DNA of 64,000 nt, taken from assembly GCF_057098645.1 (NCBI RefSeq), contig NZ_CM169472.1; one strand, given 5' to 3'. This document shows positions 39,001 through 42,000 of the stretch, piece after piece (positions within the stretch are counted from its first letter, which is position 1; the number at the start of each line of letters is the position of its first letter). The position numbers were made by a program.

Positions 39001-42000
39001 TGCCACCCTTAATTCAACGGGCTATGGATTTATCGGAGGAAATACCTCCGGTAAGGGGATAGTTAATATTTCAACGGATAGTCTCTGGAATTTAAAGACA
39101 TCATCTACTAACGCCCAATTGCTACAGGTCGGTGTATTAGGCACGGGTGAACTGAATATTACCACCGGAGGTATAGTAGACTGGCCCCCTGAATCTCCAG
39201 ACAACCAGTATCACTTAAATAAGTGATAGTCTTAATACTAGTTTTTAGACTAGTCATTGGAGAACAGATGATTGATGTCTTAGGGCCGGAGAAACGCAGA
39301 CGGCGTACCACACAGGAAAAGATCGCAATTGTTCAGCAGAGCTTTGAACCGGGGATGACGGTCTCCCTCGTTGCCCGGCAACATGGTGTAGCAGCCAGCC
39401 AGTTATTTCTCTGGCGTAAGCAATACCAGGAAGGAAGTCTTACTGCTGTGGCCGCCGGAGAACAGGTTGTTCCTGCCTCTGAACTTGCTGCCGCCATGAA
39501 GCAGATTAAAGAACTCCAGCGCCTGCTCGGCAAGAAAACGATGGAAAATGAACTCCTCAAAGAAGCCGTTGAATATGGACGGGCAAAAAAGTGGATAGCG
39601 CACGCGCCCTTATTGCCCGGGGATGGGGAGTAAGCTTAGTCAGCCGTTGTCTCCGGGTGTCGCGTGCGCAGTTGTACGTCATTCTCAGACGAACCGATGA
39701 CTGGATGGATGGCCGCCGCAGTCGTCACCCTGATGAGAGACTGCGTGTCACGTTCGCGCTGGACTGCTGTGATCGTGAGGCACTGCACTGGGCGGTGACT
39801 ACCGGCGGCTTCAACAGTGAAACAGTACAGGACGTCATGCTGGGAGCGGTGGAACGCCGCTTCGGCAACGATCTTCCGTCGTCTCCAGTGGAGTGGCTGA
39901 CGGATAATGGTTCATGCTACCGGGCTAATGAAACACGCCAGTTCGCCCGGATGTTGGGACTTGAACCGAAGAACACGGCGGTGCGGAGTCCGGAGAGTAA
40001 CGGAATAGCAGAGAGCTTCGTGAAAACGATAAAGCGTGACTACATCAGTATCATGCCCAAACCAGACGGGTTAACGGCAGCAAAGAACCTTGCAGAGGCG
40101 TTCGAGCATTATAACGAATGGCATCCGCATAGTGCGCTGGGTTATCGCTCGCCACGGGAATATCTGCGGCAGTGGGCTTGTAATGGGTTAAGTGATAACA
40201 GATGTCTGGAAATATAGGGGCAAATCCATATAGTTAAAGCGCGTGATACACAGATAGCTCTCAATGACAAAAGTAAGGGCGACGTGAGGGTGGATGGGCA
40301 GAACTCTCTTCTTGAAACATTCAATATGTACGTAGGGACATCTGGTACGGGTACGTTAACCCTGACGAATAGCGGCACGCTGAATGTCGAAGGTGGAGAA
40401 GTTTACTTAGGTGTTTTTGAACCTGCTGTAGGATCGCTAAACATTGGTACAGCTCACGGTGAGGCGGCGGCAGATGCCGGGTATATAACCAACGCGACGA
40501 AAGTAGAGTTTGGTTCTGGCGAAGGTGTTTTTGTCTTTAATCATACTAATAACAGTGATGCCGGCTACCAGGTCGATATGCTGATTACAGGTGACGATAA
40601 AGACGGAAAAGTGATCCATGATGCAGGCCATACGGTGTTCAATGCAGGGAATACTTATAGCGGTAAAACGCTGGTCAATGACGGCCTCCTGACCATTGCG
40701 TCTCATACGGCAGATGGGGTAACGGGCATGGGTTCGAGTGAAGTAACCATTGCAAGCCCCGGTACGCTCGACATTCTCGCATCAACGAACAGTGCAGGAG
40801 ATTACACGCTGACCAATGCGCTCAAAGGCGATGGCTTGATGCGAGTGCAGCTGTCATCCTCCGACAAGATGTTTGGCTTTACCCATGCAACAGGGACTGA
40901 ATTCGCCGGTGTTGCCCAAGTGAAAGACAGTACCTTCACTCTGGAACGCGACAACACCGCTGCGCTTACTCACGCGATGTTGCAGTCTGACAGTGAAAAT
41001 ACCACATCGGTAAACGTGGGAGAGCAATCCATTGGTGGACTGGCCATGAATGGCGGTACGCTCATTTTCGATACGGATATTCCTGCTGCGACGCTTGCAG
41101 AGGGATATATCAGCGTCGATACGCTGGTTGTCGGCGCGGGTGACTACACCTGGAAAGGACGTAACTATCAGGTAAACGGGACGGGCGACGTGCTTATCGA
41201 CGTGCCTAAACCGTGGAATGATCCCATGGCGAATAACCCTCTGACGACGCTCAATTTGCTGGAACACGATGATAACCATGTCGGCGTTCAACTGGTGAAG
41301 GCGCAAACGGTTATTGGGTCGGGTGGCTCATTAACGTTACGTGATTTACAGGGCGACGAGGTGGAAGCGGACAAAACGTTACACATTGCGCAAAACGGAA
41401 CGGTGGTCGCCGAGGGTGATTATGGATTCCGCCTCACGACCGCACCAGGTGATGGTTTGTACGTTAACTATGGGCTGAAAGCGCTGAACATCCATGGAGG
41501 GCAAAAGCTGACGTTAGCCGAACATGGCGGAGCCTATGGCGCAACGGCCGATATGTCGGCAAAAATCGGTGGTGAAGGGGATCTGGCAATCAATACGGTG
41601 CGACAGGTTTCGCTTTCCAACGGTCAGTTACAGGGGGAACGCTGGCTATCGAGGGGCTTAATGCACGCTACAATGCGTTAACCAGCGTTAGCCCAAATGC
41701 GGAAGTCAGCCTCGATAATACGCAGGGGTTAGGCAGAGGAAATATTGCCAATGACGGTCTGTTAACGCTAAAAAACGTGACTGGCGAACTGCGTAATAGC
41801 ATAAGCGGGAAGGGTATCGTGAGCGCAACCGCCAGCACAGATGTAGAGCTGGATGGCGATAATAGCCGCTTTGTGGGGCAATTCAACATTGATACAGGCA
41901 GCGCGCTCAGCGTCAACGAGCAGAAAAACCTGGGTGATGCTTCCGTTATCAATAATGGCCTGCTCATCATCTCCACTGAGCGTAGCTGGGCGATGACGCA

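What the first reader, a model, noticed from the sequence alone, without database searches (positions are those of the whole stretch)
41576..41700. Frameshift at a G5 homopolymer in the autotransporter passenger domain
Upstream of about 41635 the coding frame is frame 0 (ending ...SNGQLQGERWLSRGLMHATMR-stop at 41681); downstream, the autotransporter continues in frame 2 (...GGTLAIEGLNARYNALTSVSPNAEVSLDNTQGLG...). The switch coincides with the run caggggg at about 41631-41637, consistent with loss of one G. This could be slipped-strand phase variation, a fixed pseudogenising mutation, or a homopolymer sequencing error.
Basis: seen in the sequence. Interest (0 to 1): 0.4.

Follow-up and report, generated by a model that had tools for sequence, protein, structure and literature searches.

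The report
247-bp deletion in dead autotransporter gene
The reading-frame break is real, but it comes from a 247-base deletion fixed in the E. coli O145:H28 lineage, not from a lost G, and the gene is an ordinary decaying adhesin pseudogene that an insertion sequence also interrupts.

Summary
The frame switch described at 41576-41700 exists, and so does the G5 run at 41633-41637. The run is not the lesion. Intact 1806-aa alleles of this gene carry the same TTACAGGGGGAACG. The gene is the ECSE_1600-family autotransporter, known as the yneO/ydeK-ydeU pseudogene in K-12, and it lies between lsrK and hipB. What the window lacks is 247 bp (82 codons plus 1 nt) between 41627 and 41628, joined with 1 bp of microhomology.

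Putting those 247 bp back and removing a defective IS2 copy (39177-40228, target duplication TATAG) gives a single 1806-codon ORF. That ORF matches NCBIfam NF011422 end to end.

The exact deletion junction occurs in 26 of 5426 complete E. coli genomes. Nineteen are labelled O145, all match at 100% and all have G5. Among about 4200 genomes that carry the locus, one has G6 at this run and none has G4. The data therefore show no sign of a sequencing error or of phase variation.

The lesion is a fixed, lineage-specific pseudogenising deletion, already flagged as "frameshifted" in RefSeq. Interest is low.

One side observation: the IS2 target site has four different states within the O145:H28 lineage, which suggests IS insertion followed by excision footprints.

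The parts
37457..39176 (+). 5' part of the ECSE_1600-family autotransporter pseudogene. It holds the ESPR extended signal peptide (37457-37597) and the N-terminal passenger repeats. As it stands, the ORF runs on into IS2 and stops at 39226.
   Evidence: PF13018 ESPR, aa 1-47. The exact 589-aa product is also called on 7 draft-genome contigs.
39172..39176 (.). Left copy of the 5-bp IS2 target-site duplication, TATAG. The right copy is at 40229-40233.
   Evidence: Intact alleles and K-12 have a single TATAG here.
39177..40228 (+). IS2 copy of 1052 bp. It lacks 279 bp internally (IS2 nt ~561-839, junction at 39735/39736), which removes 93 codons of the transposase ORF in frame. It interrupts the autotransporter gene.
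   Evidence: 99.3-99.8% identity to IS2; prefix 560, suffix 494, 279 deleted; HTH_Tnp_1; rve/rve_3. Neither junction is found in 5426 complete genomes.
40229..41627 (+). Middle part of the passenger domain, corresponding to codons ~574-1038 of the intact gene.
41627..41628 (+). Junction of the 247-bp deletion. It removes nt 3115-3361 of the intact ORF, which are codons 1039-1120 plus 1 nt. The G at 41627 could come from either side (1-bp microhomology). This is the true cause of the frame change.
   Evidence: The junction 50-mer occurs in 26 of 5426 genomes.
41628..41681 (+). Out-of-frame tail of 17 codons (LQGERWLSRGLMHATMR) followed by a TAA stop at 41679-41681.
41633..41637 (+). G5 run. This is its native length and it is unchanged. 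In the intact protein it encodes part of ..V-T-G-G-T..
   Evidence: G5 in the window and L001-L007; G6 in 1 genome, G4 in none.
41627..43687 (+). 3' part of the pseudogene in the shifted frame. It holds the rest of the passenger, the autochaperone/pertactin region (~42260-42620) and the autotransporter beta-barrel (~42839-43618). The stop is at 43685-43687.
   Evidence: (PF18883, PF03212, PF03797, PF12951).

Best explanation
The window carries the ECSE_1600-family AIDA-type autotransporter gene of E. coli, the gene known as the yneO/ydeK-ydeU pseudogene in K-12. It sits between lsrK and hipB and is present here as a dead gene. The frame change at 41627/41628 is the junction of a 247-bp deletion inside the beta-helical passenger domain. 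The deletion was formed by illegitimate end joining with 1 bp of microhomology. Because 247 = 3x82+1, everything downstream, including the autochaperone and the beta-barrel translocator, is shifted out of frame, and translation stops 17 codons later at 41679-41681. The G5 run just downstream is native sequence and took no part. The deletion is fixed in the O145:H28 STEC lineage, to which the window belongs (99.94% identity). In this strain the gene is also split upstream by a defective IS2 copy. The signal-peptide-bearing N-terminal fragment is therefore uncoupled twice from the translocator, and no surface-displayed adhesin can be made.

Shown: the lesions, their coordinates, their distribution among genomes, and the reconstruction of an intact ORF.

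Inferred: the loss of function, which follows from the established requirement of type Va autotransporters for signal peptide, passenger and beta-barrel in one polypeptide; and the way the deletion formed.
For: BLAST against K-12 and strain 503829 places window 41627 opposite both ends of a 247-bp segment. The junction sequences were read directly.

Restoring the 247 bp and removing the IS2 copy plus one target-duplication copy gives one 5421-nt, 1806-codon ORF with no internal stop. That ORF matches NF011422 'ECSE_1600 family autotransporter' over positions 1-1806 of 1806 at 4122 bits, against a cutoff of 2335. It is 96-97% identical to two RefSeq-annotated intact 1806-aa alleles.

In a multiple alignment against an intact allele, the only indel left in the window's gene once the IS is removed is del(3114,247).

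The run is G5 in all eight sequences compared, whether intact or not.

The junction 50-mer was designed so that only junction-spanning 28-mers can seed a match. It hits 26 of 5426 complete genomes, all at 100% identity. Nineteen are labelled O145. The window is 99.94% identical to O145:H28 RM13514 over 16 kb. RefSeq marks the gene 'frameshifted' in these genomes.

All 40 listed best hits for the 120-bp query have its two halves 247 bp apart.

The SE11 genome paper reports ECSE_1600 as 1806 aa, truncated in MG1655, E24377A and O157 Sakai and absent from B2 strains (PMC2608844). Frequent loss-of-function mutations in autotransporter genes of O145:H28 are reported in PMC9144400.
Against: No reads were available, so the window's own assembly cannot be checked directly. 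The argument rests on identical junctions in other assemblies.

The breakpoint lies within 10 nt of one of only six G>=5 runs in the gene, which is about a 3% chance for a random position. In intact alleles both breakpoints lie just upstream of a CAGGGGG heptamer. Some sequence-directed contribution to the deletion therefore cannot be excluded, although the junction is not in register with those repeats.

Loss of function is inferred and was not measured.
Confidence: 0.95

Rival explanations
1. One G was lost from a G6 run by slipped-strand mispairing, giving either a phase-variable ON/OFF switch or a fixed -1 frameshift.
For: A G5 run lies 6 nt from the frame change and is the only homopolymer of 5 or more bases in the stretch where both frames are open. 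A homopolymer frameshift does occur in this gene in K-12, at a different run, where G6A has become G8.
Against: Intact 1806-aa alleles have G5 at this run. The window differs from them by 247 bp, not 1 bp. All 26 genomes with the junction have G5. G6 occurs in 1 genome and G4 in 0 of about 4200 genomes with the locus. In the one G6 genome, strain A39, the gene is annotated as frameshifted, so G6 there breaks the frame rather than restoring it. From general knowledge, five G is shorter than the tracts of known contingency loci.
Confidence: 0.01
2. The frame change is a sequencing or assembly artefact, either a homopolymer miscall or a collapsed repeat.
For: Passenger domains are repetitive and homopolymers are error-prone. 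No reads were available for the window.
Against: The identical junction is present in 26 complete genomes from different laboratories, countries and years. No direct repeat flanks the deleted segment that could collapse in assembly. The flanking sequence is 99.9-100% identical to those genomes.
Confidence: 0.01
3. The two frames are native, separate genes, as in the old K-12 annotation ydeK + ydeU. Alternatively, they are joined by programmed -1 ribosomal frameshifting at CAG GGG GAA.
For: K-12 was once annotated with two genes here. A P-site tRNA could in principle re-pair at -1 on the G run.
Against: Uninterrupted 1806-aa ORFs exist in other strains and match a full-length curated family model. 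CAG GGG GAA is not an X XXY YYZ slippery heptamer in the zero frame (sequence). The two-frame arrangement is confined to one lineage and was created by a deletion. The fragment after the IS has no signal peptide.
Confidence: 0.01

Closest known systems
ECSE_1600 of E. coli SE11 (NCBIfam NF011422, ECSE_1600 family autotransporter; intact 1806-aa alleles such as WP_065226924.1 and WP_096986979.1)
   Same: Same locus between lsrK and hipB. Same length once reconstructed (1806 aa), at 96-97% identity. Same architecture: ESPR signal peptide, T5SS repeats, autochaperone/pertactin region and beta-barrel.
   Different: The window's copy lacks 247 bp (codons 1039-1120 plus 1 nt) and is split by a defective IS2 copy. 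It is a pseudogene.
yneO (ydeK/ydeU) pseudogene of E. coli K-12
   Same: It is the orthologous gene and is also inactivated by a frameshift in the passenger domain.
   Different: K-12 has a single extra nucleotide in a G run (G6A has become G8) at ORF nt ~3954. That is a true homopolymer frameshift at a different run, equivalent to window 42221-42226, which is an intact G6 here. The two are independent events.
The same pseudogene in complete O145:H28 genomes (RM13514, RM13516, UTME-3 and others), annotated by PGAP as 'frameshifted'
   Same: They share the identical 247-bp deletion junction and the G5 run, at 99.9-100% identity.
   Different: None of them carries the IS2 copy. At its target site they show TATATATAG (+4; 23 genomes), a 1-nt loss (RM13516; RM12761 not examined) or the wild-type TATAG (UTME-3).
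Slipped-strand contingency loci, i.e. homopolymer phase variation of surface proteins
   Same: A surface-adhesin gene with a G run close to a frame change.
   Different: Tract length is invariant and equals the length in intact alleles. The frame change is caused by a large deletion.

Membership tests
ECSE_1600 family autotransporter (NF011422) | Full-length match to the curated model above its cutoff | tested here: met
   The reconstructed ORF scores 4122 bits against a cutoff of 2335, covering 1-1806 of 1806. This holds only after restoring 247 bp and removing IS2.
ECSE_1600 family autotransporter (NF011422) | Type Va architecture: N-terminal (ESPR) signal peptide, passenger and C-terminal beta-barrel | tested here: met
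   PF13018 is found in the 5' fragment. PF18883, PF03212 and PF03797 are found in the 3' fragment.
ECSE_1600 family autotransporter (NF011422) | Conserved chromosomal position between lsrK and hipB | tested here: met
   with the window ORF map.
ECSE_1600 family autotransporter (NF011422) | A single uninterrupted ORF, i.e. a functional member | tested here: not met
   There is an IS2 insertion at 39177-40228 and a 247-bp frameshifting deletion at 41627/8. It is a pseudogene of the family.
Slipped-strand phase-variable (contingency) locus | The frame change is due to a change in repeat-tract length | tested here: not met
   The tract is G5 in intact and disrupted alleles alike.
Slipped-strand phase-variable (contingency) locus | Tract length varies among closely related strains | tested here: not met
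   All 26 of 26 genomes with the junction have G5. G6 occurs in 1 genome and G4 in 0 of about 4200.
Slipped-strand phase-variable (contingency) locus | Length heterogeneity within a single culture | not testable with these tools
   This needs reads or amplicon sequencing.
Programmed -1 ribosomal frameshift | Slippery heptamer X XXY YYZ in the zero frame, and a two-frame arrangement conserved in homologues | tested here: not met
   The zero-frame codons are CAG GGG GAA. Homologues have one continuous frame.
IS2 (IS3 family) | Near-identity to IS2 at both ends, and a 5-bp target duplication | tested here: met
   99.3-99.8% identity to IS2 nt 1-560 and ~838-1331. TATAG is duplicated on both sides.
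IS2 (IS3 family) | Complete transposase (OrfAB, 1331-bp element) | tested here: not met
   279 bp are missing internally. The second ORF is 208 aa rather than the 301 aa recalled for full-length IS2 InsD, a drop consistent with the 93-codon loss.

The most novel reading that the evidence does not exclude
The deletion removes 3n+1 bases and sits 6 nt upstream of a G5 run. A +1 slippage to G6, in DNA or during transcription or translation, would therefore put the beta-barrel back in frame. The result would be an autotransporter with an 82-residue shorter beta-helix. In O145:H28 strains where the deletion is the only lesion (UTME-3 type), the run could act as a rare reversion switch. In this window it could not, because IS2 also interrupts the gene upstream. 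No genome shows the G6 state in the deletion background.
Probability: 0.02. Interest if true: 0.3.

Novelty: already known. Interest (0 to 1): 0.1.

Why it matters
It matters little in itself. This is one more lineage-specific lesion in an adhesin gene that has been inactivated independently in many E. coli lineages. Examples are K-12 and strain A39 through small frameshifts, SMS-3-5 through loss of the C-terminus, and the 503829 group through a full IS2; the SE11 paper reports truncated copies in E24377A and O157 Sakai.

It has three practical uses:
- The 247-bp deletion junction is a clean marker of the O145:H28 lineage, found in 26 of 5426 complete genomes.
- The case shows that a frame change next to a homopolymer should not be attributed to slippage without comparison with an intact allele.
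- The variable IS2 target site offers a small natural record of IS insertion and excision.

Tried and rejected
- I looked for direct repeats flanking the deleted segment in an intact allele. None brackets the breakpoints, so homologous or slipped-repeat deletion is rejected. The two CAGGGGG heptamers near the breakpoints are out of register with the junction.
- An 8-nt inverted repeat, CAGGTTTC/GAAACCTG, brackets the segment and pairs in the ssDNA fold. The breakpoints are not at the base of that stem, and six such pairs occur in 461 nt, so I treat it as chance.
- The antisense ORFs 41668..42060 and 41768..42286 have no Pfam match and are taken as shadow ORFs.
- Literature searches for yneO, ydeK, ydeU and ECSE_1600 found no functional study of this autotransporter. 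A search combining O145 H28, autotransporter and pseudogene returned nothing.
- Searches for the window's IS2 junctions in complete genomes found nothing. The exact truncated 589-aa product is nevertheless present in 7 draft-genome contigs.
- I did not use the structure-prediction, large protein-database or metagenome tools. The question was settled at the DNA level.

Full report
**Observation**

The ORF 40284..41681 ends ...SNGQLQGERWLSRGLMHATMR with a stop at 41679-41681. The frame offset by 2 is open from 41576 and runs ...VTGGTLAIEGLNARYNALTSVSPNAEVSLDNTQGLG... to a typical autotransporter C-terminus (...GVKYSW) at 43687. 'caggggg' occupies 41631-41637. The frame change is therefore real, and a G5 run lies beside it.

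**What the gene is**

A 7-kb query around the site matches E. coli chromosomes between lsrK and hipB. The gene there is annotated 'ECSE_1600 family autotransporter'. In K-12 (C600) it is a 'frameshifted' pseudogene, the yneO/ydeK-ydeU locus. In strains 06-00048 and 2014C-3075 it is an intact 5421-bp gene encoding 1806 aa.

**What the lesion is**

Pairwise BLAST of the window against K-12 and strain 503829 shows two discontinuities.

- Window 39177-40228 is IS2 sequence.
- Window position 41627 aligns to both ends of a segment that the window lacks.

Read directly, intact-type sequence runs ...CCAACGGTCAG|AACGACTATCAGGGGGCAACC...(247 bp)...AACCTGAATG|TTACAGGGGGAACGCTGG. The window runs ...CCAACGGTCAG|TTACAGGGGGAACGCTGG.

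The missing piece is 247 bp, which is 82 codons plus 1 nt and starts exactly after codon 1038. The only shared base at the junction is one G. The G run is G5 in the window and in three O145:H28-type genomes. It is also G5 in K-12, 503829, SMS-3-5 and both intact alleles. No G has been lost.

**Reconstruction**

I joined window 37457-39177, window 40235-41627, the 247 bp from K-12 and window 41628-43687. This gives a 5421-nt ORF of 1806 codons with no internal stop. It is 96-97% identical to the two intact alleles. It matches NCBIfam NF011422 over 1-1806 of 1806 at 4122 bits, against a cutoff of 2335.

Pfam finds the ESPR signal peptide in the 5' fragment. It finds the autochaperone, pertactin and beta-barrel domains in the 3' fragment. 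In a multiple alignment against an intact allele, the 247-bp deletion is the window's only indel once the IS is removed.

**Distribution**

I used a 50-nt query with 25-26 nt on each side of the junction, so that only 28-mers spanning the junction can seed a megablast hit. It matches 26 of 5426 complete genomes, each at 100% over all 50 nt.

- Nineteen are labelled O145, O145:H28 or O145:NM.
- Seven carry no serotype in the record name.
- The two unlabelled genomes I retrieved, C325 and UTME-3, are at least 99.9% identical to the window.

The window is 99.94% identical to O145:H28 RM13514 across 32550-49652, apart from the IS2 copy. With a 120-nt query, 4065 genomes carry both halves, and all 40 listed best hits have them 247 bp apart. 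The deletion is therefore a derived, fixed marker of the O145:H28 lineage. It is not an artefact of one assembly.

**Test of the phase-variation idea**

All 26 junction-bearing genomes have G5. Queries engineered with G6 or G4, so that every seed word must contain the altered run, found G6 in one genome (A39) and G4 in none. In A39 the gene is annotated as frameshifted, so G6 there is itself a lesion or a sequencing error.

The zero-frame codons CAG GGG GAA do not form a canonical -1 slippery heptamer. Nothing supports slippage at this run.

The breakpoint does lie within 10 nt of one of only six G>=5 runs in the gene, which is about a 3% chance for a random position. Both breakpoints lie just upstream of a CAGGGGG heptamer in intact alleles. 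The junction is not in register with those heptamers, and no direct repeat brackets the segment. An 8-nt inverted repeat that brackets it does not place the breakpoints at a stem base. I therefore infer illegitimate joining with minimal microhomology. The exact mechanism cannot be recovered.

**Consequence (inferred)**

Type Va autotransporters need signal peptide, passenger and beta-barrel in one polypeptide; this is established knowledge of the family. Here the ESPR-bearing fragment ends inside IS2 at 39226. The next fragment has no signal peptide and ends at 41681. The barrel-encoding part is out of frame. The locus is a pseudogene.

The SE11 genome paper already noted that ECSE_1600 (1806 aa) is truncated in MG1655, E24377A and O157 Sakai and absent from B2 strains (PMC2608844). 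A comparative study of O145:H28 reports frequent loss-of-function mutations in autotransporter genes (PMC9144400). I found no functional study of this particular protein.

**Side observations**

- *The IS2 copy.* It is 1052 bp long, lacks 279 bp (93 codons) of its transposase ORF, and is flanked by a TATAG duplication. Neither its insertion junction nor its internal junction occurs in any complete genome. The exact 589-aa IS-truncated product is nevertheless called on 7 contigs of draft genomes, so the insertion is real and shared.
- *The TATAG site within the lineage.* All genomes with the 247-bp deletion were compared at this site. UTME-3 has the wild-type TATAG. RM13516 has lost one T next to it. 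Twenty-three genomes have TATATATAG (+4). The window has the IS. The +4 state equals the window's sequence minus the IS and one base, and it cannot be the substrate from which the window's flanks arose. This pattern suggests an IS2 insertion followed by independent precise and near-precise excisions. A strain phylogeny is needed to confirm it.
- *The K-12 frameshift.* It is a genuine homopolymer event, G6A to G8 at ORF nt ~3954. The equivalent run in the window, 42221-42226, is an intact G6.

**Verdict**

This is an ordinary lesion, already annotated in RefSeq, and of low interest.

Noticed in passing
window 39172-40233: A defective IS2 copy of 1052 bp, with 279 bp (93 codons) of the transposase ORF deleted in frame, is inserted in the autotransporter gene with a TATAG target duplication. 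Its junctions are absent from all 5426 complete E. coli genomes. The exact IS-truncated 589-aa product is present on 7 draft-genome contigs (GCA_024357405.1, GCA_029357705.1, GCA_900195455.1 and others).
   Followed up: partly
window 39172-39176 / 40229-40233; L003 6623-6631; L008 ~3627-3632; L009 3627-3631: The IS2 target site has four states among genomes that all share the 247-bp deletion: wild-type TATAG (UTME-3), loss of one T (RM13516), TATATATAG (+4; 23 genomes) and the IS2 copy (the window). The +4 state equals the window minus the IS and one base. This suggests IS insertion followed by independent excision footprints. In the +4 genomes the two lesions sum to -243, a multiple of 3, but the ~1.4 kb between them is out of frame.
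   Followed up: partly
window 42221-42226 (G6); K-12 locus L002 ~7411: The K-12 yneO frameshift is a true homopolymer event at a different G run of the same gene. Intact alleles and the window have CTGGGGGGACACTG. K-12 has CTGGGGGGGGCACTG, i.e. one extra base plus an A-to-G change.
   Followed up: partly
L013 (E. coli A39, NZ_CP028737.1) 4501-4550: This is the only genome of about 4200 with G6 at the finding's run. Its gene is 5423 bp and annotated as frameshifted, so it carries two extra bases in all. These could be real mutations or homopolymer sequencing errors.
   Followed up: no
L001 5008-6338 (strain 503829 and many similar genomes): A full-length IS2 of 1331 bp is inserted in the same autotransporter gene, 171 bp upstream of the window's insertion site. 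It is an independent IS2 hit on the same gene.
   Followed up: no
window ~43900-45400: Downstream of the pseudogene, hipB is intact but hipA is only an internal remnant, and the following helix-turn-helix gene is a frameshifted fragment, as annotated in O145:H28 RM13514. In RM13516 hipB is also truncated and about 236 bp (window 43729-43964) are missing.
   Followed up: no
L005 (E. coli SMS-3-5) 1947-6791: In SMS-3-5 the same autotransporter gene has lost its C-terminal end together with hipBA. This is yet another independent inactivation.
   Followed up: no
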